From a plasmid: a stretch of DNA of 64,000 bases. The notes beneath the pieces were generated by a model. The model saw only the letters and a program-made list of their open reading frames with translations, was not told the origin of the DNA and did no database searches. Shown here in pieces: positions 1,883 to 63,545 of this stretch. The stretch lies in assembly GCF_054482525.1 (NCBI RefSeq), contig NZ_JBTHVG010000003.1, one strand, 5' to 3'. Each line of letters starts with the position of its first letter. Positions within the stretch are counted from its first letter, which is position 1. Position numbers and translations under genes: made by a program.

Positions 1883-4800
1883 GTGAAACTTAGAAAAACA
1901 ATCACCTCAGCGATTATTGCATCAATGGTTGCCAATACTATGAGTTGGGCTTTTTATGTCACACTCATAAACATGGTAATGACACCACGTGTTTACGCTG
2001 CTGACGCTATATTTGACCAGCTCGAAAATAATTTTAACCTTGCAAATCCTAACGCAAATCGCAATGCAACCACCAGTGCTCAGGACATTGTGGAGAAATA
2101 CAAGAACGCGGATTCAGGCGAGAATGTCAGTGGGAAGATCACCGAGAAATACGTGGGTAAAGCCGAATCCGCTAATCTTAATCTCGGGAAGTATGGGGCA
2201 GGGAACTCTAATGAAAGTGTCATGAAAAATGCCGCATCCGATGGAAAGTCTATTGGTAGCGCCGTACAACTGCCGAGTATGTCTGGAGGGACAATCAATT
2301 CAAACTACACCAAGGAAGGGGCAAAGCTGCTCTCTCGTGATGCTAATGGCAACATTGGTATAAGCAGTAATCCCAATACTACTCCTGGAACCAAAACAAA
2401 TACGGGAGAGATTTTCAGCTCAGAGCAAAAGCACAGCGATATAAAGTTCAACGCCGCAGATCGTTATGGGGATGAGGATGGCTTTGTTAACGATATAAAG
2501 AATCGGAAAAGCCAGTTATTTGATGCTCAAAGTTATGATGGCGTTGCCTACCGCACCCTCGTAAATGCTAACAAGGACAACCCGGCATCGTCTGTAAAGC
2601 CTAACGATCCCATGTTTACTGCGGGGAGAAATGAGATAACCAATGCTGTTGCTGGTACTGGAAACTGGCTTCAGAACTGTAATGTTGAGACCTCCAAAAA
2701 AACAGTAACCACACACTATCCTGATTACAAAGAGTTCTACTGTAACTCGCCTAAGCAAGATAACTTCAGCAGCTGCACGATAACTCGTGACTTCTCTGTT
2801 CCTGTATACATTTCAGGCGGAAACGGAGACATGTCGATGTGCGGCGATAATTGTGTGCGTATATGGTTTGGTCGCCGTGATGACAACTACTGGAGTGACG
2901 GGGTATTTGATAACGAACTGACATTAAAATTCCATCCGGATGCAAAATTGGCCTCAGCAAAGATTGTTAACGCGGAGTGGGATGACCACATGCGGGTAAC
3001 ACTTGATGGCACGCAGATTTTTGCTCACATAGATGGTGCATATCGAGAAAGTGACTATCCGGCTCCAAAGGGATCTTGGGAGTTAAAAAAATCGTGGAAA
3101 CTCGACAAAGTATACGATGTAACTGAAAAGGTCAGAAAATCAGTTTATGAAGAACCTGATCGTGAAGTGACAATGGCATCCAGAGTCTGGGTTGGTGGGG
3201 GAGGTGAAGGGTACTTTGAGGTTGAGCTGACGTTTGAAAATATGAAGCTCGAAGATAAGCACGTCCAGGAACCAGCTGGTTGTTACGATGCTGTACAAAC
3301 ACCAAATACATTCTGCCGTTTCGATCGGTTTAAAGATATGGATGTTGGCACGAAGCGGCTTCCGGAAAGCGTGCTTTCTATGGCAAAGCCGCTGTATGAA
3401 GGCGATAAAGGCTTTCTTACCTGGAAGACTAACCTTGAAGGCTATTTTTGTGATCCATTGGCTAAAGACAAGATTTGCTCTTATGACGCCAGTGGGAAAA
3501 TTATGAAAGACGCTAATGGAAAGGACCTCTGTTACAACTACGAAGAAATTAAGAGTATGCCTGATGCATGTAGTTCTTATAAAAATGATGCAGCATGTGT
3601 ACTCGATAAACAAACATGTGCAGAGGGTTGGTTCGATGAGGGCACTAACAGCTGCTACATGTATGAACAGAAATACACCTGTGACAGAGGTAAGGATGTA
3701 GTTCGTGAGGTTGAATCTTCTACAAATGCCTGTGTTGGCATGATCCCATGTTCTGGAGGAACATGCGAAACTGGGCCAAAGGAAGAGAACAACGATTTTG
3801 GAAAAGTTGCGGCTTATTCAAACATGGTTCAGTACATGCAGGGCGAAGCCAAATGCGAAGACCCTAACGATGCCAATTCCTGTTCTGTCTTTGAAGGAAA
3901 ACCTGAATGGTGTGGTCGTTCAGTAGGCTTTGTAAATGGCCTGGCAAAGACGGACTGCTGCGAAGCACCGCAGGGAACCGCAGGAGCACTTGAAGGTATC
4001 ATGCTTGCCGGATCTATGATCAGAAACACTAACTGGACCAGAGTTAATGCTCAGCTAATAAAATGGACCGGCGGTGATACAGGTACATGGGCTTCTATGT
4101 CCAATGCGGTCGGTGAGTGGACTGCATCAGCTGGTAAAACAGTAGGGCAAATGTGGAACAATGTCACGAGCTCCTTAACGAGCGTATATGAAAACGTCGC
4201 TGGTAATCTAAGCAGGGCAGTTGGGTCTTCCGCAACTTCTGGAGGGGCAGGAGGTGCTGGCCAGTTGGCACAGGAAACAATGTCCAGCTTCGGTATAGGT
4301 CAGCTTAAGCAGATGGCAATGAAGAAAGCCTACGAATTGCTACCAGATACAGTTCGAGACTTTGTCTTTAAGAACGTTGCTACTACCGGAGGAGAGGTTG
4401 TCTTCTCGGCTGCGGTTCAAAACTTTATGCTTGCATTAAACGTGATCGGTTGGATTTATACAGCCTATCAGGTCACTAAAATGCTTTTAGAAATGTTGGT
4501 AGCATGCGACCAGAAAGAGATGGAAGCTTCTATTCATAAGAATCAAAAATCCTGTTTTACATTAGATACGGAACGATGCGTCAAATATCTGAATGTTGGT
4601 TTCACAAAGAAATGCGTTAAAAAAGCAACAGACATGTGCTGTTATAATTCCATGTTGTCACGCGTTATTATGCAACAAGCTTATCCGCAATTAGGAATAG
4701 ACCCTGTCGCCTCTAATTGCGTGGGGCTATCAATAAAGCAAATACAGCAACTGGATTTCGATAAAATTGATCTGACGGAGTGGATTAATGATGCAGTTCA

Positions 4801-51017: not shown

Positions 51018-51357
51018 TATACGGGAGTTTAAATGTTCGCAGAAATCAAAGATAATTATTCGTTAGGTGGATAAAGAAAGGTTGCCATTACCAGCTTTCG
51101 ACGAGTCGAAAATAAAAACCTTATTTATAGTGACAGGGAGTATGAGCTGACGCTTGCCAATGGAACAATAATTAAAAATGTACTTAGAAAAGAAGAGTGG
51201 GAACTGTTAGAAAGCAATTCAATTAAGGTTATATTATAACGAAAATATATTTACAGTTTTGGATAGGTTTCAAACGAGTCCGGACATTTGTACCTGAAGT
51301 ATCTGACATTACAGTTAAGTGACGATTATGTCAGCACGTCTGTTGCTGGCAGCTTAG

Positions 51358-51639
51358 CTATCGGTCTAAAAGCTGATCCATTAATAATTCTTCGTAAAGC
51401 CCAGAGGTATCGGGCTTTATTACAATATCCGTTATTTCGAAGCGTTCAAGTACAAATTGCAGATATTCCGGAGTAACGTAGTAGGGATCAGGTTCAGCCA
51501 GATTAGTATAGAGTGGGTCTTCTGCTGCATTAATGTCATAATCAATGCACATATGAAACCACTGCAAAGGTGGATCCCAGCCTAACATCACCTGAACAAT
51601 TCCCTGATTGCTTTTCACCTCATACCAGTGCTGGCTCAT
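51358..51639 (-). CDS. Hypothetical protein
   Basis: 93-aa ORF in a run of three small minus-strand ORFs. Confidence 0.3.
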   Translation of the reverse strand: MSQHWYEVKSNQGIVQVMLGWDPPLQWFHMCIDYDINAAEDPLYTNLAEPDPYYVTPEYLQFVLERFEITDIVIKPDTSGLYEELLMDQLLDR

Positions 51640-51688
51640 ACTTAGTCCTTAAGAAAATTTGTCATCGGAAAATAACACGAAGCCTGCA

Positions 51689-51880
51689 TCATCGAGGCGC
51701 ATAACCTTCTTCCCTTAACGCCTGTTGTAATTTATCAACTGCGCTTTTCATTACCCAGGCTTCTTCGTCACTCACAGCACAACCACGTAGATCGCTCCAG
51801 CTCAGACGTTTAACAAATTGAGCAAGGGCCATAGTTTCGTTCTCATCAAGCCGCAAACTCAGTGTCTCAATACCTTCCAC
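51689..51880 (-). CDS. Small hypothetical protein
   Basis: 63-aa ORF. Confidence 0.3.
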   Translation of the reverse strand: MEGIETLSLRLDENETMALAQFVKRLSWSDLRGCAVSDEEAWVMKSAVDKLQQALREEGYAPR

Positions 51881-51971
51881 TATCTAACCTCCCTTATAAT
51901 GAAAAATGGCGCTTTACTTCTGACCAGATGCCGAAGCCTTGAATGCAGCCGGAACTGTCGTTGTTTCTACT

Positions 51972-52343
51972 TTACAGAAATGGAATTAAAAAGTGGTGAT
52001 GCTGGGCACGTTTCTTTTCCAGCCGGGGTTTAAGCCAGAGCTGAAACTCATTCAACTTCTCAGCAGCCAAAACCGCTTCAACGGGGAAAACTTTATATTT
52101 ACCCTGTTGCTGAGGTTCACCCAGCCATCGCCTGATGGCTCCGTCAGTCCATAAACGAGTCTCTTTTAGCCTAGTTACAGTGACCCATTTTCTGGACCAT
52201 TCATCAAATTGTCGCTGGCGATCCCGATAACGTTGTTCTTCCTGCTGCCGAAGCCACTCGCGATCAACAGCAAATTTTCGGTATCCAACAAAGAGCCCTT
52301 GTACTTTGGCCATGTCATATTCCGGTTGCTTAGAGTTACTCAT
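51972..52343 (-). CDS. Hypothetical protein
   Basis: 123-aa ORF with a basic, R/Q/E-rich segment. Confidence 0.35.
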   Translation of the reverse strand: MSNSKQPEYDMAKVQGLFVGYRKFAVDREWLRQQEEQRYRDRQRQFDEWSRKWVTVTRLKETRLWTDGAIRRWLGEPQQQGKYKVFPVEAVLAAEKLNEFQLWLKPRLEKKRAQHHHFLIPFL

Positions 52344-52646: not shown

Positions 52647-53078
52647 GTGATAACACAAACAGGCCCCTACAGCGTAAGGATTGTGATGGACGATAAAGAG
52701 CAGTTTACGAATCTTGTGGCAAAGCATGCCTCCGGACTCACCGAAGAGCAGCTGGCCGGGTACGATGCCTGTTCCCTGGATGGTGAATGCGTCACGCCTT
52801 CATACGAGGTTTTCCGGGGGTATCGTACCCGCCACACACTGGATGAATTTCTGGAGATGGCCATATCGCTGAATGCCATCCACCCGGATGAATATTTAAC
52901 GGATATGCTGCTGAAGCCTCATGAGGTGATCGGCGCTCTGGCCGATGAAGGCGACCAGCTGAACAACGCCACCCCGGTTTATTTCTTTCCGGATACCGGC
53001 GTCTATGCAGCGGCCGTTAGTGAAACCCGGGTGCTCGATGCCTGGCTTTGCTGGCCATGCTACCCGGCGAACTGGTAA
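52647..53078 (+). CDS. Hypothetical protein
   Basis: 143-aa ORF; no recognised motif. Confidence 0.4.
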   Translation: MITQTGPYSVRIVMDDKEQFTNLVAKHASGLTEEQLAGYDACSLDGECVTPSYEVFRGYRTRHTLDEFLEMAISLNAIHPDEYLTDMLLKPHEVIGALADEGDQLNNATPVYFFPDTGVYAAAVSETRVLDAWLCWPCYPANW

Positions 53079-53552
53079 CGCGGCCGTTGGAATTGCACCG
53101 GCCGGATACGAATTTAACCGACCCCGTGGCGGGAAGGCTATCAGAGTTGCATGTCCTCATCCCTCAAGCCCCCTGCCAGGCCCCAACGTGCTGTCAGGCT
53201 TCGCCTGATTCCCGATCTGCGCCGATACTTCAGCCGATAACTTTTTGTTTTCTTTTTATTTTCTTCCCATTTCCTCAAAAATCGCGGGCGGCGTGGACAG
53301 GGCACCATTGCCGCATGTGGGGTCTTAATAAGGGCAGGGTGGTCAGTTTTGCTCGATGCCAGGGTTAGGCCCTCCCCTTCATGGGATGAGGACATGCAAG
53401 TAAGCTAACTATCTGAAATGACGAAGGTTCATTTGGTGAATGTCGCTTCATATTAATGTTGTGTCACTTATGATCGTATGTAGCTGGTTGCAAAGAGGAG
53501 CGATGAGACAATAAAGTTGTATCGCTAACAAGATTTATGCTGCCACATAGTA

Positions 53553-53620
53553 ACAGCCTAAAAGTTGTACGCCCTATTTAACAGCTTTTAGGCTGTTAAT
53601 TTGATATTACAGCTTTTAGG
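53553..53620. promoter_or_regulatory. Operator-like repeat array upstream of hipB
   Basis: 12-bp motif ACAGCTTTTAGG occurs at 53581 and 53609 as direct repeats, with an inverted near-copy ACAGCCTAAAAG at 53553; 60-120 bp upstream of hipB. Confidence 0.35.
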
Positions 53621-53678
53621 GTGTATGTTTAGGAAACAGCCTGCAAGGTGTATCAGAGGAAACTACTGAGGCCAGCTT

Positions 53679-53975
53679 ATGATCAATAATGATTACCCGT
53701 TAAACACGCTCAACCAGCTGCGTCCCTTGCTCATTGGTTTTCGCAAGGCGAATGGCCTGACGCAAAAAGACCTGTCCGAAAGGTTAGGCGTCACTCAACA
53801 GACATACTCACGTCTGGAAGCCAACCCTGCCAGTGCGAGCATTGAACGGCTATTCAAGGTGTTTTCCATCCTGGGCGTAAAAATCAGCTTCTCCTCGGCA
53901 ACCACCTCTTCAGAGAGGAAGCAGACGGAAGAAATGCTTAAATCAAACTCACCTGCACGACAGGAGGATTGGTAA
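53679..53975 (+). CDS. hipB: HipB-like XRE-family antitoxin
   Basis: HTH segment GLTQKDLSERLGVTQQTYSRLE; stop 4 nt before the hipA start. Confidence 0.75.
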   Translation: MINNDYPLNTLNQLRPLLIGFRKANGLTQKDLSERLGVTQQTYSRLEANPASASIERLFKVFSILGVKISFSSATTSSERKQTEEMLKSNSPARQEDW

Positions 53976-53979
53976 CGAT

Positions 53980-55305
53980 ATGAGCCGGAAACAGCAACGT
54001 CTGGTAATTTGGATGAACGGCATCAAAGTCGGGTACTGGGAAAAAAGCAAAGGGGTAGACAGCTTAGAATACCTTCCTGAATGGGTTGCTGACGAACAGG
54101 GAAGGCCGCTGTCATTGTCCCTTCCTTTTACTCCCGGGAACCAGGTCTGGCGTGGAAATGTGGTACGTGACTATTTTGATAATTTACTGCCGGACAGCGA
54201 AGGCATACGCAGACGTCTGGCAATGCGTTACAAGGCCGATAGCCTGGAGCCTTTTGATCTGCTGACGGAGCTGGGAAAAGACTGCGTGGGCGCGATACAG
54301 CTGCTTCATGACGGAGATGAACCCACTGATTTATATTCCGTGAAGTATCACCCGCTTACTGAATCAGAAATTGCGGCAACTTTGCGTAATACCACGGAGA
54401 CATTGCTACCGGGCAGGCCAGAAGATAACGACGACTTACGTTTATCTATTGCCGGTGCTCAGGAGAAAACAGCCCTACTGTGGCATGAAGAACGGTGGTG
54501 TATGCCGGAGGGTAATACACCAACGACGCATATATTCAAGCTACCGCTCGGACTTGTGGGGAACATGAAAGCCGACATGAGCTCGTCGGTTGAAAATGAA
54601 TGGCTCTGCTCGGTACTTCTCGGCCAGTACGGGCTCCCCGTGGCAAGAACGCAGATTGCTCACTTTGAAGATCAGAAAGCGCTGGTGGTAGAACGTTTTG
54701 ACCGAAAATGGTCAGGAGACGGACAATGGATCATTCGTTTACCCCAGGAGGATATGTGTCAGGCCCTGGGCGTTTCGCCATTACGAAAATATCAGGCGGA
54801 CGGCGGGCCAGGTATATCGGAAATTATGGAGGTTCTGAGTAATTCAGACCGTGCTGAGCGTGACAAAGCGCAGTTTTTTATGACGCAGATAATTTTCTGG
54901 ATGATGGCCGCAACAGATGGCCACGCTAAAAATTTCAGTATTTCTATTGGGCCACAGGGACGTTATCACCTTACACCAAACTATGATGTGTTGTCGGCAT
55001 GGCCGGTGATCGGTCATGGGAACAATCAGATATCCTGGCAGAAGTGCAAACTGGCGATGGCCGTACGTGGCAGTAGCAACTATTACCAGATATATCGAAT
55101 ACAACGACGCCACTGGATCAGGCATGGTGAGATAACCGGCCTGAGTAAACAGCAGACAGAGGCGATGATAGAGGAAATCATCGCCAGAACCCCGGGTGTC
55201 ATTGAACGTGTTAGCGGGCTTCTTCCGGACCAGTTCCCCCAGCAGCTTGCGGAAAGTATTTTTGATGGAATGAGGCAGCAATGCAGGCGCCTGGCTGAGA
55301 AATGA
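53980..55305 (+). CDS. hipA: HipA-family Ser/Thr kinase toxin
   Basis: 441 aa with HipA-like blocks SIAGAQEKTALLWHEERWCMP and GHAKNFSI. Confidence 0.85.
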   Translation: MSRKQQRLVIWMNGIKVGYWEKSKGVDSLEYLPEWVADEQGRPLSLSLPFTPGNQVWRGNVVRDYFDNLLPDSEGIRRRLAMRYKADSLEPFDLLTELGKDCVGAIQLLHDGDEPTDLYSVKYHPLTESEIAATLRNTTETLLPGRPEDNDDLRLSIAGAQEKTALLWHEERWCMPEGNTPTTHIFKLPLGLVGNMKADMSSSVENEWLCSVLLGQYGLPVARTQIAHFEDQKALVVERFDRKWSGDGQWIIRLPQEDMCQALGVSPLRKYQADGGPGISEIMEVLSNSDRAERDKAQFFMTQIIFWMMAATDGHAKNFSISIGPQGRYHLTPNYDVLSAWPVIGHGNNQISWQKCKLAMAVRGSSNYYQIYRIQRRHWIRHGEITGLSKQQTEAMIEEIIARTPGVIERVSGLLPDQFPQQLAESIFDGMRQQCRRLAEK

Positions 55306-55365
55306 CAGCCGCAATTTATAGTGTGCATGTTTTCAGAATAGCTGATGTAAGCGTGAGGATTCAGT

Positions 55366-55572
55366 ATGACTGAAGAACAAAAAAGAATAGAGCGGGCTAT
55401 TGAGTTGGCTTGTCGTTACGGCGGAACCGATGAAATGCATCATCTGCAATGGGTCGTGGATCAGATGGTAAGAGAACTTGCTGGAGAACGTTATGCACAG
55501 ATTGTAGCTGATGCCACCAGCGGAGAAGATGGGCCTGATACTTACAAATGGAGTGTTGGGATCGCGCCTTAA
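55366..55572 (+). CDS. Small hypothetical protein
   Basis: 68-aa ORF. Confidence 0.3.
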   Translation: MTEEQKRIERAIELACRYGGTDEMHHLQWVVDQMVRELAGERYAQIVADATSGEDGPDTYKWSVGIAP

Positions 55573-55673
55573 CAGCTGTCGGTCTGGGGGTGAAAACGTA
55601 TTCTTCATTCAGCGAATTCCCAGGCTTCACATTAAGACTAAAGCGGCGGCCGCAGTAACGTAAGAGAAAATAA

Positions 55674-56084
55674 ATGGCTATTTTAGCAATCATTGCAGTT
55701 ATCGCCCTGGGTGGGTACGCCTACGGATTTATTAAAACCCGTGAGCTGAGCGCTTTGCGTAAAGAAATGAAACTATACGTGGATCGCATGGAAGCGGCGG
55801 AGCTGGACTTACACGCAATCAGAAGTGTAGCGGAGCACCGGTTGCACGGTGCAGGTAAACAGTTTGCCGACCTTTACAGCCGTATCGACGGTGCAACTGT
55901 GACGCTGACACCCGAAGATCAGCTGTTACTGGCAACGATGCCATTTAATATTCAGGATGTAGAAGACATCGTAAACGAGCGCGGTCCAAAGACAATTAGC
56001 GGCCGTCCATTCTGGGAAGTTGAGCCAGGCCCGCATGATTATGAATATGGCCCGCAATATCCGTATTTCCCAGACCAGCGCTAG
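55674..56084 (+). CDS. Hypothetical protein with N-terminal TM helix
   Basis: MAILAIIAVIALGGYAYGFI; ends 12 nt before the HNH gene. Confidence 0.4.
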   Translation: MAILAIIAVIALGGYAYGFIKTRELSALRKEMKLYVDRMEAAELDLHAIRSVAEHRLHGAGKQFADLYSRIDGATVTLTPEDQLLLATMPFNIQDVEDIVNERGPKTISGRPFWEVEPGPHDYEYGPQYPYFPDQR

Positions 56085-56096
56085 GAAGAGATCAAG

Positions 56097-56912
56097 ATGA
56101 GAGAGCCAAGACCACGCCATACCTTGCAGGTCATTCGTGTACCTTCTCTGGAGGTTCAGGACCTGGGGCTGACCAGCTTTGATAGCTGGCTTGACGAGCA
56201 CGGGTATGACAAAACGAATGCCAGAAATAACCGTACCATCTGGGCGAGAGAAGGCGGATGGCATCTGAAACGTTGCAGAAATCTTGAAACTGGCACGGAC
56301 GATTTCTGGTTTATCGCTTTCGATGGTAAAGGCGGGAAGATTTACCCGCTGAAAACCCAAAGAGACTACCGGGCTGCATATCGTAAGCTGGAAGCAGAAG
56401 GTTATGCGCCTGCGGTCATCGAGCAAATGACCACAGGCGCAGCATATAACCTGGCCTATCCACGTTCCACCCTAAAACAAGCTGAGACGGCCACCAGCGA
56501 GCCAATTCGGAAACCTGACGTAGATATCCAGGGTGAGCACTGCGAGCGCGTAGTGACGCAACGTAGTGGCGTGGCACAGGGTAAATTCAAAGCTCTGCTC
56601 ATCGAGAATTTCGCAGGCCGTTGTGCGGTAACCGGTTGGGTTAATGGAGGTGTCCTGGATGCGGCACACATTGAACATGGAACCCGGTACAATCCGTCTA
56701 ATGGCATCCTGATGACTCCAACAATGCATGCGCTGTTTGATGCCGATCTTATGGGCATAGATCCGGCCACCCTGACCGTTCATTTTAAGCCAGGCATTGA
56801 GGTGGGCGAGCTGTTTGAAGGCCGTAAAATCACACCGCTGGTGTACGATCTGGACTTAGAGCGGCTGGCCGTACGCTGGGCAGAATACCAGGGCCTTGCT
56901 CAGGACCAATGA
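56097..56912 (+). CDS. HNH endonuclease with N-terminal extension
   Basis: HNH core CAVTGWVNGGVLDAAHIEHGTRYNPSNGILMTPTMHALFD; AGGAAGAG RBS. Confidence 0.75.
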   Translation: MREPRPRHTLQVIRVPSLEVQDLGLTSFDSWLDEHGYDKTNARNNRTIWAREGGWHLKRCRNLETGTDDFWFIAFDGKGGKIYPLKTQRDYRAAYRKLEAEGYAPAVIEQMTTGAAYNLAYPRSTLKQAETATSEPIRKPDVDIQGEHCERVVTQRSGVAQGKFKALLIENFAGRCAVTGWVNGGVLDAAHIEHGTRYNPSNGILMTPTMHALFDADLMGIDPATLTVHFKPGIEVGELFEGRKITPLVYDLDLERLAVRWAEYQGLAQDQ

Positions 56913-63204: not shown

Positions 63205-63545
63205 CGGTTTTGCCAATATGGGAAACTGAAGAGGTTGAAACCATCCCGGTGAGGGAGCATATCTGGTAAAGAAGAGTCTTTAAAAAGGTTTTACGCGACC
63301 TGGGATAATAAACGGGAAAACGATACCCAAAAAAAGAATACAGCGATGATAACGATAAGGAATGGTAAGGGCTTCAATATTTTGAGAAATGCCCTGGCTT
63401 CCTTTGCATCTGCATTTCTAATCAAACTGTCCACATAGGGATCACAGCTCTTAGGTTCTGAATTTTTCATATGTTCTGTACCTGAAATTGATTCCGTATG
63501 AGAAAAGGCCACCGAAGTGGCCTCTATCAAAACTGGTGGCAAAAG

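What the first reader, a model, noticed from the sequence alone, without database searches (positions are those of the whole stretch)
53553..55305. hipBA toxin-antitoxin module with an upstream operator-like repeat array
The HipB HTH protein and HipA kinase are separated by 4 nt. Upstream, a 12-bp motif occurs three times (two direct copies and one inverted near-copy), consistent with autoregulatory operator sites.
Basis: partly seen in the sequence, partly recalled or inferred. Interest (0 to 1): 0.3.

Follow-up and report, generated by a model that had tools for sequence, protein, structure and literature searches.

The report
IncHI2 plasmid hipBA toxin-antitoxin operon
This is the hipBA toxin-antitoxin operon of the IncHI2 resistance-plasmid backbone, already annotated in over a thousand plasmids, with four evenly spaced repressor-binding palindromes over its promoter; it is ordinary, apart from an operator sequence I found described in no searched paper.

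Summary
hipB (53679-53975, HTH_3) and hipA (53980-55305, Couple_hipA + HipA_C) lie 4 nt apart. The 12-mer ACAGCTTTTAGG occurs exactly twice, with one inverted 1-mismatch copy.

The real unit is a 16-18 bp imperfect palindrome, W-ACAGC-N6-GNTGT-W, present four times (53552-69, 53580-97, 53608-25, 53635-52) at 28/28/27 bp spacing. The sites bracket a promoter-like -35/-10. These are the only exact matches in the 64 kb window.

In 79 related loci from two proteobacterial classes (HipA 59-81% identical), hipB always sits directly upstream of hipA. Its promoter region carries the same ACAG-N8-CTGT sites, 32-fold enriched and locked to a 27-bp register.

HipA keeps every catalytic and regulatory residue of K-12 HipA that I checked. 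HipB keeps the C-terminal Trp and has a predicted disordered tail.

The DNA is 100% identical to IncHI2 plasmids, where RefSeq annotates the pair and papers list hipAB as a backbone maintenance module. I found no experiment on it.

Verdict: a known kind of system at a known locus. The operator sequence and its strict phasing are a modest, apparently undescribed detail. Binding, toxicity and kinase target are inferred.

The parts
53552..53569 (.). Operator-like site S1, AACAGCCTAAAAGTTGTA (core ACAGC-N6-GTTGT)
   Evidence: It aligns with conserved sites in 17 Enterobacterales promoters. The only substitution against the R478-type allele is at a centre position.
53580..53597 (.). Operator-like site S2, AACAGCTTTTAGGCTGTT (perfect palindromic arms AACAGC/GCTGTT)
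   Evidence: It was also flagged as a weak terminator-like hairpin, which I read as a by-product of the palindrome.
53601..53606 (+). Promoter-like -35 hexamer TTGATA, between S2 and S3
   Evidence: Consensus scan, 9/12 matches with a 17-nt spacer. The TTG is conserved at this aligned position in most relatives. A prediction only.
53608..53625 (.). Operator-like site S3, TACAGCTTTTAGGGTGTA, filling the -35/-10 spacer
   Evidence: Its position is equivalent to K-12 O2.
53624..53629 (+). Promoter-like -10 hexamer TATGTT, overlapping the right end of S3
   Evidence: 'GTGTAtT.T' is conserved in relatives. A prediction only.
53635..53652 (.). Operator-like site S4, AACAGCCTGCAAGGTGTA, at or near the predicted transcription start
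Evidence: Its position is equivalent to K-12 O1.
53668..53671 (+). Shine-Dalgarno-like GAGG, 7 nt before the hipB ATG
   Evidence: Read directly from the sequence.
53679..53975 (+). hipB: a 98-aa Cro/C1-type HTH antitoxin/repressor with a predicted disordered tail (75-98) ending in Trp98
   Evidence: HTH_3 E 4.5e-15. Matches K-12 HipB chain 2wiu_B at E 1.4e-06. 32% identical to K-12 HipB over the HTH. The AlphaFold model has four helices and pLDDT below 50 for residues 75-98. The C-terminal Trp is present in 77 of 79 relatives.
53962..53967 (+). AGGAGG ribosome-binding site for hipA, inside the 3' end of hipB
   Evidence: Read directly from the sequence.
53980..55305 (+). hipA: a 441-aa Ser/Thr kinase toxin
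   Evidence: HipA_C and Couple_hipA. E 2e-100 to E. coli HipA structures. 41% identical to K-12 HipA. S156, K187, D313, N318, D336, G25 and D295 correspond to K-12 S150, K181, D309, N314, D332, G22 and D291.

Best explanation
This is an intact, autoregulated type II HipBA toxin-antitoxin operon on the backbone of an IncHI2 conjugative plasmid.

Shown by sequence:
- hipB encodes a Cro-like HTH protein and hipA a full-length HipA kinase with all the catalytic residues I checked.
- Four 16-18 bp palindromes (W-ACAGC-N6-GNTGT-W) at 27-28 bp spacing cover a promoter-like -35/-10.
- The same sites, in the same register, accompany hipB relatives across Enterobacterales and Betaproteobacteria.

Inferred by analogy with E. 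coli K-12 HipBA:
- A HipB dimer binds each palindrome through its recognition helix (TQQTYSRLE here, KQATISNFE in K-12).
- HipA joins as co-repressor, giving HipA2HipB2 units on neighbouring operators that shut off the promoter and hold HipA inactive.
- The disordered HipB tail (residues 75-98, ending ...RQEDW) makes HipB protease-labile once it is free.
- When the plasmid is lost or HipB is depleted, HipA phosphorylates an aminoacyl-tRNA synthetase, most probably GltX. This stops translation and growth, giving post-segregational killing and plasmid maintenance, and possibly antibiotic tolerance.
- The operator and recognition helix differ from the chromosomal K-12 system, so the two systems should not cross-regulate in an E. 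coli host.
For: - Domains and structural homologues. Catalytic, autophosphorylation and hipA7-site residues are all conserved.
- All four exact ACAGC-N6-GNTGT matches in the 64 kb window lie at 53553-53651.
- The promoter-like TTGATA-17-TATGTT is interleaved with S2/S3/S4, mirroring the K-12 layout O4, O3, [-35] O2 [-10] O1 read. K-12 operator spacing is 28/39/28.
- All 79 related loci with enough flank have hipB immediately upstream of hipA.
- Sites matching at least 8 of 10 core positions occur at 13.5 per kb in the 200 nt before hipB, against 0.43 per kb in the rest of the loci. 65 of 80 loci have two or more.
- Spacing between sites is 27 bp (116 times), 28 (13), 54 (9) and 45 (1).
- An alignment of 17 Enterobacterales promoters, made without reference to the motif, conserves ACAGC and TGT while the site centres and surroundings vary.
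- The family HipB recognition helix is invariant (G.TQQ.YA.lEANP) and differs from K-12.
- HipB ends in Trp in 77 of 79 relatives, and its tail is predicted disordered. In K-12 the 16-residue tail is the Lon degradation signal and W88 docks on HipA (PMC3376134).
- Selection is purifying: hipA pN/pS is 0.36 against the R478-type allele and about 0.15 against L004. Operator substitutions between the two plasmid lineages fall only at centre positions.
- The locus is 100% identical to IncHI2 plasmids and is found in 1186 plasmid records.
- A different plasmid-borne HipBA has been shown to be toxic, to be neutralised by HipB and to stabilise a plasmid (PMC11487325).
Against: - Nothing was measured for this locus: no HipB-DNA binding, HipA toxicity, HipB lability, kinase target or plasmid stabilisation. 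The papers that mention IncHI2 hipAB only annotate it or assume its role (PMC4855149, PMC6306219, PMC6617520).
- The promoter call is a 9/12 consensus match. The region gave 5 such matches against 3.0 expected.
- In some relatives the centre of the fourth site is TATAAT, so the -10 could lie elsewhere.
- HipB scores below the NCBIfam HipB equivalog cut-off (41.5 against 79 bits), so this is a different subfamily and details may not transfer. In Shewanella the HipA-HipB-DNA assembly differs markedly from K-12 and operator binding is not cooperative (PMC4150777).
- HipA homologues can target TrpS or LysS rather than GltX (PMC8262856).
- In K-12, W88A and tail deletion did not change HipA or DNA affinity (PMC3376134), so the role of the conserved Trp is unclear.
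Confidence: 0.85

Rival explanations
1. The module is a functional HipBA, but its main role on the plasmid is not post-segregational killing. It might instead promote host persistence or antibiotic tolerance, exclude competing elements, or act in abortive-infection phage defence.
For: - K-12 and Caulobacter HipBA are linked to persistence rather than addiction (PMC8262856, PMC7029023).
- The close relatives listed are mostly on large contigs or chromosome records, where plasmid addiction may be irrelevant (replicon type not checked).
- No stability experiment on the IncHI2 module was found.
Against: - There is no significant PADLOC defence-family match, only generic HTH hits and a weak PDC-M03A hit at 3.4e-05.
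- The module is a conserved backbone feature in 1186 large, mostly conjugative plasmids.
- Another plasmid HipBA does stabilise its plasmid (PMC11487325).
- The roles are not mutually exclusive.
Confidence: 0.2
2. The four repeats are not HipB operators. They would instead be binding sites for another plasmid or host factor, or remnants of a mobile-element end, that happen to lie upstream of hipB.
For: - No binding data exist.
- The break in homology between the two IncHI2 lineages lies only about 29 nt upstream of S1, so a recombination junction is close by.
Against: - The sites travel with hipB in both chromosomal and plasmid contexts, across two proteobacterial classes and in unrelated flanks.
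- They lie inside the conserved module, not outside the homology break.
- Their layout over the promoter copies that of K-12.
- A family-invariant HipB recognition helix accompanies a family-invariant half-site.
Confidence: 0.04
3. The palindromes act as RNA or DNA secondary structure, for example a terminator insulating hipBA from upstream transcription or a leader hairpin, rather than as protein-binding sites.
For: - S2 followed by a T-rich run was flagged as terminator-like.
- Region 53540-53680 folds at -48.1 kcal/mol with a z-score of -4.5.
Against: - The fold signal follows trivially from several copies of one palindrome.
- Most of the region lies upstream of the predicted start site.
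- The S2 stem has only 3 G-C pairs.
- Conservation is of the sequence ACAG/CTGT, with no covariation seen in those columns, and of a 27-bp register.
- There is no Rfam match.
Confidence: 0.03
4. The module is a decaying or silenced remnant that no longer produces an active toxin.
For: - Highly toxic HipA genes readily acquire inactivating mutations (PMC11487325).
- No expression or toxicity data exist for this allele.
Against: - Both ORFs are intact and all catalytic residues I checked are conserved.
- pN/pS is below 1.
- 1153 plasmid records cover at least 80% of the queried locus at 95-100% DNA identity.
- hipA/B transcripts were differentially expressed in an IncHI2 transcriptome study (PMC13183382).
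Confidence: 0.05

Closest known systems
Escherichia coli K-12 chromosomal HipBA (hipB b1508 / hipA b1507; structures 3DNV, 2WIU, 3HZI)
   Same: - Gene order hipB then hipA, with tight coupling.
- HipA has the same two domains and is 41% identical, with S150, K181, D309, N314, D332, G22 and D291 all conserved.
- HipB is a Cro-type HTH with an unstructured tail ending in Trp.
- Four palindromic sites are interleaved with the -35/-10, and neighbouring sites are 28 bp apart.
   Different: - The half-site is ACAGC (ACAGC-N6-GCTGT) rather than TATCC (TATCC-N8-GGATA). No K-12-type operator lies at this promoter.
- The recognition helix is TQQTYSRLE rather than KQATISNFE.
- Spacing is a uniform 28/28/27 instead of 28/39/28.
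- There is a 4-nt intergenic gap instead of a 1-nt overlap (coordinates).
- HipB is only 32% identical and falls below the NCBIfam equivalog cut-off.
- This copy is plasmid-borne.
Shewanella oneidensis MR-1 HipBA (SO0705/SO0706; structures 4PU3-4PU5)
   Same: - Four palindromic operators with a 5-N6-5 design (GTGTA-N6-TACAC).
- The genes are separated by a few nt (3 bp).
- The HipB C-terminus is sequestered by HipA (PMC4150777).
   Different: - The half-site sequence differs.
- The Shewanella operators are 34 bp apart and one lies inside hipB (PMC4150777). Here the gaps are 10-12 bp and all sites are upstream.
- The Shewanella HipA is far more distant from this HipA than K-12 HipA is (E 1.5e-21 against 2e-100).
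Klebsiella michiganensis pPSKoxy4_2 (IncA/C) HipBA
   Same: It is a plasmid-borne hipBA. It is the only one I found that has been shown experimentally to be toxic, to be neutralised by HipB and to stabilise a plasmid (PMC11487325).
   Different: It belongs to a different plasmid family. It probably also belongs to a different HipA subfamily: it is 43.9% identical to K-12 HipA (PMC11487325), and the non-IncHI2 Enterobacter plasmid HipAs are about 44% identical to this one. I did not compare the two proteins directly.
HipBST tripartite systems (E. coli O127:H6, Legionella pneumophila)
   Same: They share a HipB-like HTH partner and a HipA-family kinase core.
   Different: In those systems the kinase is split into HipS (N-terminal-domain-like, the antitoxin) and HipT. 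Here HipA is full length with its own Couple_hipA N-domain and there is no third gene.

Membership tests
HipBA type II toxin-antitoxin system | The toxin is a full-length HipA kinase with the N-terminal Couple_hipA domain and the HipA_C kinase domain. | tested here: met
   PF13657 E 3.7e-21 (residues 9-108) and PF07804 E 3.6e-51 (residues 155-405). E 2e-100 to E. coli HipA structures across residues 7-431.
HipBA type II toxin-antitoxin system | Catalytic and regulatory residues of K-12 HipA are present: autophosphorylated Ser150 in the P-loop, Lys181, Asp309, Asn314 and Asp332. | tested here: met
   Pairwise alignment gives S156, K187, D313, N318 and D336, with the P-loop AGAQEK identical. The functional roles of these residues are from my own knowledge of K-12 HipA.
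HipBA type II toxin-antitoxin system | The antitoxin is a Cro/C1-type HTH protein encoded immediately upstream in the same operon. | tested here: met
   HTH_3 E 4.5e-15. Matches K-12 HipB chains at E 1.4e-06. The gap is 4 nt. The pairing is conserved in 79 of 79 related loci.
HipBA type II toxin-antitoxin system | HipB has an unstructured C-terminal tail ending in a conserved Trp. | tested here: met
   The protein ends ...RQEDW. 77 of 79 relatives end in W. pLDDT is below 50 for residues 75-98. For comparison, W88 is 'universally conserved' and the K-12 tail is the Lon tag (PMC3376134).
HipBA type II toxin-antitoxin system | Several palindromic operators overlap the promoter, allowing autoregulation. 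| tested here: met
   The sequence-level criterion is met: four palindromes interleaved with the -35/-10 and conserved across the subfamily. Actual binding and repression cannot be tested here.
HipBA type II toxin-antitoxin system | HipA expression arrests growth, HipB neutralises it, and HipB binds the operators. | not testable with these tools
   This needs wet-lab assays. I found no published test of the IncHI2 allele.
HipBA type II toxin-antitoxin system | The kinase target is an aminoacyl-tRNA synthetase (GltX for K-12 HipA). | not testable with these tools
   Targets vary among HipA homologues: GltX, TrpS or LysS (PMC8262856). Sequence alone does not decide.
K-12 HipB equivalog (NCBIfam NF007271) | The score reaches the curated equivalog cut-off of 79 bits. 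| tested here: not met
   The score is 41.5 bits. This is the same kind of antitoxin but a distinct subfamily, with a different recognition helix and operator.
HipBST tripartite system | The kinase is split (HipT lacks the N-domain) and a separate HipS antitoxin gene is present. | tested here: not met
   HipA is a single 441-aa protein with both domains, and there is no third ORF between hipB and hipA.

The most novel reading that the evidence does not exclude
The near-invariant 27-bp register of two to six ACAG-N8-CTGT operators is kept from Enterobacterales plasmids to Burkholderiales chromosomes, and it matches the 28-bp O1-O2 and O3-O4 pairing of K-12 despite a different half-site. This would mean that contact between HipA2HipB2 units on neighbouring operators is an ancient, selected feature of HipBA. 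That contact is the higher-order assembly proposed for K-12 as the basis of HipA inhibition and of the hipA7 phenotype. If so, the IncHI2 module and its relatives would give a natural series of two-, three-, four- and six-operator promoters on which to test the model. The orthogonal operator code would also let plasmid and chromosomal HipBA coexist in one E. coli cell without cross-talk.
Probability: 0.3. Interest if true: 0.4.

Novelty: already known. Interest (0 to 1): 0.15.

Why it matters
IncHI2 plasmids carry mcr-1, mcr-9, CTX-M and oqxAB genes through E. coli, Salmonella and Enterobacter. Their stable inheritance is often attributed to hipAB without any test.

This work gives the exact operators, the promoter layout and the residues to mutate, which makes such a test simple to design. 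It could also inform plasmid-curing approaches that de-repress or unbalance the module.

For toxin-antitoxin biology the gain is incremental. It adds a third HipB operator sequence to those of K-12 and Shewanella, and comparative evidence that operator spacing, not only operator sequence, is under selection.

Tried and rejected
- **K-12-type operators.** I searched the window for TATCC-N8-GGATA. The only hit is a chance-level 1-mismatch match at 4682, so this promoter does not use the K-12 code.
- **Rfam.** A scan of 53000-55700 at E <= 1 found nothing.
- **RNA folding.** The repeat region gave z = -4.5. I rejected this as evidence for an RNA element because repeated palindromes must fold, most of the region is probably not transcribed from the hip promoter, and conservation is of sequence and register rather than of pairing.
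- **PADLOC.** The scan gave only generic HTH hits and a weak PDC-M03A hit, so I did not file the module as a known defence system.
- **Literature.**
  - Searches for IncHI2 + hipA, hipBA + R478, HipB + operator and hipB + ACAGC found no experimental study of this module and no description of the ACAG-N8-CTGT operator. The ACAGC hit I opened (PMC8978831) was in primer sequences; the others were not opened.
  - Schumacher et al. 2015 (Nature 524:59) could not be retrieved. Statements about HipA-HipA contacts between operator-bound complexes and the hipA7 interface therefore rest on my own knowledge.
- **Motif pattern.** My first, strict pattern missed many betaproteobacterial sites. A scoring scheme requiring 8 of 10 core positions recovered them. 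Fifteen of 80 loci still show one site or none. Some of these probably reflect my approximate hipB start estimates: two obviously wrong starts, L042 and L083, appear.
Full report
**1. What is in the sequence**

Two same-strand ORFs fill the reported interval. The first is 53679-53975 (98 aa) and the second 53980-55305 (441 aa).

The first ends in TAA at 53973-75 and the second starts with ATG at 53980. An AGGAGG at 53962-67 inside the end of the first ORF can serve the second. A GAGG at 53668-71 precedes the first ORF.

Pfam assigns the small protein to HTH_3 (E 4.5e-15). It assigns the large one to Couple_hipA (E 3.7e-21) plus HipA_C (E 3.6e-51).

Among solved structures, the best matches of the large protein are E. 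coli HipA entries (E about 1e-100, aligned over residues 7-431). The best matches of the small protein are E. coli HipB chains (E 1.4e-06).

Against K-12, fetched as L003, HipA is 41% identical and the HipB HTH region 32% identical.

In a pairwise alignment every K-12 residue I checked is retained. The roles of these residues are from my own knowledge of K-12 HipA:
- the autophosphorylated P-loop serine (S150 becomes S156, with AGAQEK identical);
- K181 becomes K187, D309 becomes D313, N314 becomes N318 and D332 becomes D336;
- the two hipA7 positions, G22 becomes G25 and D291 becomes D295.

**2. The repeats**

An inverted copy with one mismatch lies at 53557-68. Six matches at <=1 mismatch were found in the window against 0.32 expected.

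The repeat finder shows that the real unit is longer and palindromic, and that there is a fourth copy:
- S1, 53552-69: AACAGCCTAAAAGTTGTA
- S2, 53580-97: AACAGCTTTTAGGCTGTT
- S3, 53608-25: TACAGCTTTTAGGGTGTA
- S4, 53635-52: AACAGCCTGCAAGGTGTA

The pattern ACAGC-N6-GNTGT matches exactly four times in the 64 kb window, and all four matches are these sites. Start-to-start spacing is 28, 28 and 27 bp.

A consensus scan places a promoter-like TTGATA (53601-06), a 17-nt spacer and TATGTT (53624-29) among the sites. S3 therefore fills the spacer and S4 sits at about +1. This is a weak prediction, since the region gave 5 such matches against 3.0 expected.

**3. Comparison with the reference system**

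The K-12 hip promoter reads O4, O3, -35 (TTGACT), O2, -10 (TATAAT), O1. Its four TATCC-N8-GGATA sites start 28, 39 and 28 bp apart. This agrees with the published 10/21/10-bp gaps (PMC4150777).

The plasmid promoter has the same logic: two upstream sites, one in the spacer and one at the start. It also has the same 28-bp neighbour distance. The half-site differs, however, and no K-12-type operator lies at this promoter.

Shewanella oneidensis HipBA uses a third sequence, GTGTA-N6-TACAC, four times with 34-bp gaps (PMC4150777).

**4. Evidence from relatives**

A scan of one genome per species returned 80 loci whose HipA is 59-81% identical (one further hit was a truncated 100% match). They come from Enterobacterales (Citrobacter, Serratia, Brenneria, Rahnella, Yersinia and others) and from Betaproteobacteria (Paraburkholderia, Caballeronia, Gallionella, Rhodocyclales and others).

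All 79 loci with enough flank have a HipB homologue directly upstream of hipA.

I scored 16-mers against ACAGC-N6-GCTGT and kept those matching at least 8 of 10 core positions:

| Region searched | Sites | Sites per kb |
|---|---|---|
| 200 nt before hipB | 218 | 13.5 |
| Rest of the same loci | 192 | 0.43 |

65 of 80 loci, counting the window, have two or more sites.

Distances between successive sites are 27 bp (116 times), 28 (13), 54 (9) and 45 (1). The derived consensus is TT-ACAG-c-y-T-A-T-A-r-g-CTGT-A-w.

A MAFFT alignment of the 165 nt before hipB in the window and 16 Enterobacterales relatives did not use the motif. It shows the same footprint: ACAGC and TGT columns are conserved at four positions, and a TTG sits between sites 2 and 3. 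Site centres and everything upstream of site 1 vary.

On the protein side, the family's recognition helix is essentially invariant (G.TQQ.YA.lEANP). It differs from K-12 (GIKQATISNFENNP). A conserved reader paired with a conserved half-site is what a cognate repressor-operator pair should look like.

**5. HipB tail**

77 of 79 relatives end in Trp, within a (K/R)(K/R)-E-x-W motif. The two exceptions are cases where my start-codon estimate was wrong.

The linker before the motif varies in sequence and length. HipB is 93-178 aa long among relatives, and longest in Burkholderiaceae.

An AlphaFold model built on a 13-sequence alignment gives four helices (11-24, 29-36, 40-48, 55-65). pLDDT is below 50 for residues 75-98.

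In K-12 the 16-residue unstructured tail is the Lon degradation signal, and W88 docks in a HipA surface pocket. W88A and tail deletion did not change affinity for HipA or DNA (PMC3376134). I infer, but have not shown, the same lability mechanism here.

**6. Where it comes from, and what is already known**

The 2-kb region is 100% identical to large E. coli plasmids. It matches 1186 PLSDB records, mainly from Escherichia, Salmonella, Enterobacter, Klebsiella and Citrobacter, and 986 of them are predicted conjugative. The one record whose typing I examined is IncHI2A/MOBH.

The 18 kb around the locus are base-for-base identical to pXDL-CTX-M-14. There the pair lies downstream of the ter (tellurite resistance) cluster, in a plasmid carrying IncHI-type trh transfer genes.

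RefSeq already names the products 'helix-turn-helix transcriptional regulator' and 'type II toxin-antitoxin system HipA family toxin'.

Papers list hipA/hipB as an IncHI2 backbone stability module (PMC4855149, PMC6617520, PMC6306219). One transcriptome study saw it differentially expressed (PMC13183382). I found no experiment on it.

The only tested plasmid hipBA I found is on an IncA/C plasmid of Klebsiella michiganensis. Its authors state that HipBA had not previously been characterised as a plasmid-stabilising factor (PMC11487325). That system is probably a different subfamily: non-IncHI2 enterobacterial plasmid HipAs are about 44% identical to this one. I did not compare the two directly.

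No searched paper contained an ACAG-type HipB operator.

**7. Module boundary and selection**

The second IncHI2 lineage (R478-type, 97.9% identical) aligns from about 53523 onwards and is unrelated upstream of that point. The unit conserved between the two lineages therefore begins about 29 nt before S1.

Within the operators, the two lineages differ only at centre positions of S1 and S4, never in ACAG or TGT.

hipA pN/pS is 0.36 between the plasmid lineages and hipB 0.51, based on few differences. Against the Citrobacter youngae homologue, hipA has pN 0.105 and pS 0.70. This is consistent with a maintained function.

**8. Most likely mechanism**

The sequence shows an intact HipB/HipA pair with a four-operator promoter.

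By analogy with K-12 I infer the following (PMC3920265, PMC8262856, PMC3376134; statements about higher-order complexes are from my own knowledge of Schumacher et al. 2015, which I could not retrieve):
- HipB dimers occupy the four palindromes.
- HipA binds as co-repressor and is held inactive.
- Free HipB is degraded through its tail.
- Surplus HipA phosphorylates an aminoacyl-tRNA synthetase, arresting translation.

On a plasmid, the expected outcome is killing or stasis of plasmid-free segregants.

My confidence by claim:
- a real HipBA with these operators: about 0.85;
- post-segregational killing as the main role: about 0.6;
- GltX as the target: about 0.5.

**9. Rivals**

- *Another factor binds the sites.* This is unlikely because the sites travel with hipB through unrelated genomic contexts.
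- *An RNA or terminator reading.* It rests on a weak terminator-like call at S2 and a fold z-score of -4.5. Both are expected from repeated palindromes, and Rfam finds nothing.
- *A phage-defence role.* It has no support from PADLOC, but it is not excluded.
- *Decay.* Intact ORFs, conserved residues and purifying selection argue against it.

**10. Verdict**

The locus is a known kind of system, already annotated and named in the literature.

The points added here are these:
- There are four operators, not three.
- The palindrome definition is ACAG-N8-CTGT.
- The operators are placed over the promoter.
- They keep a strict 27-bp phasing across a large HipBA subfamily.
- The recognition helix and operator differ from the chromosomal K-12 system.

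Interest is low.

Noticed in passing
window 53679-53684: RefSeq (PGAP) starts hipB at 53682, an ATC codon, giving 97 aa. An ATG lies one codon upstream at 53679 with a GAGG 7 nt before it, and an ATG aligns at this position in all 16 Enterobacterales relatives. The annotated start looks one codon short.
   Followed up: partly
window ~53079-53678, junction near 53523: About 600 bp upstream of hipB carry no annotated gene and include a pyrimidine-rich tract near 53240-53275. The two IncHI2 lineages (this one and the R478-type) are unrelated upstream of about 53523 and 98% identical downstream. A recombination or indel junction therefore sits right at the left edge of the hipBA module.
   Followed up: partly
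L014-L017 (Rahnella and relatives), fourth site about 45-47 nt before hipB: In these relatives the centre of the fourth operator is TATAAT (ACAGCCTATAATCTGT), and in many others it is TATAG-like. The -10 may therefore lie inside operator 4 in them. In the window the centre is CTGCAA and the best -10 candidate overlaps S3. Promoter position may differ within the family.
   Followed up: no
L020 (Yersinia thracica), 55-190 nt before hipB: Six ACAG-N8-CTGT-type sites lie in an unbroken 27-bp register, the longest array seen. Other loci have two or three sites, or gaps of exactly 54 bp as if one site had decayed.
   Followed up: no
L032, L033, L041, L053, L055, L066, L071 and others (Burkholderiaceae): HipB homologues here are 165-178 aa instead of about 98 aa. 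The extra length is a long linker between the HTH and the conserved C-terminal (K/R)(K/R)ExW motif. The function of the extended linker is unknown.
   Followed up: no
window 55366-56912: Three ORFs follow hipA on the same strand: 68 aa, 136 aa and a 271-aa HNH-endonuclease-motif protein. Similarly placed ORFs follow hipA in the R478-type plasmid, where the third is annotated shorter (525 nt). They may travel with the module or simply be backbone.
   Followed up: no
window 1-50000 vs NZ_CP043034.1 31469-81468: The 18 kb around hipBA are identical to pXDL-CTX-M-14, but the first 50 kb of the window are not collinear with it at fixed offset. At least one insertion or deletion separates the two plasmids; that record has an IS903B at 51110-52078.
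   Followed up: no
window 63444-63459: ACAGCTCTTAGGTTCT is a single 1-mismatch match to the operator pattern, far from hipBA. The total of 1-mismatch hits in the window was 22 against 11.7 expected, but eight of the 22 are the four hip sites counted on both strands. This one is probably chance.
   Followed up: no
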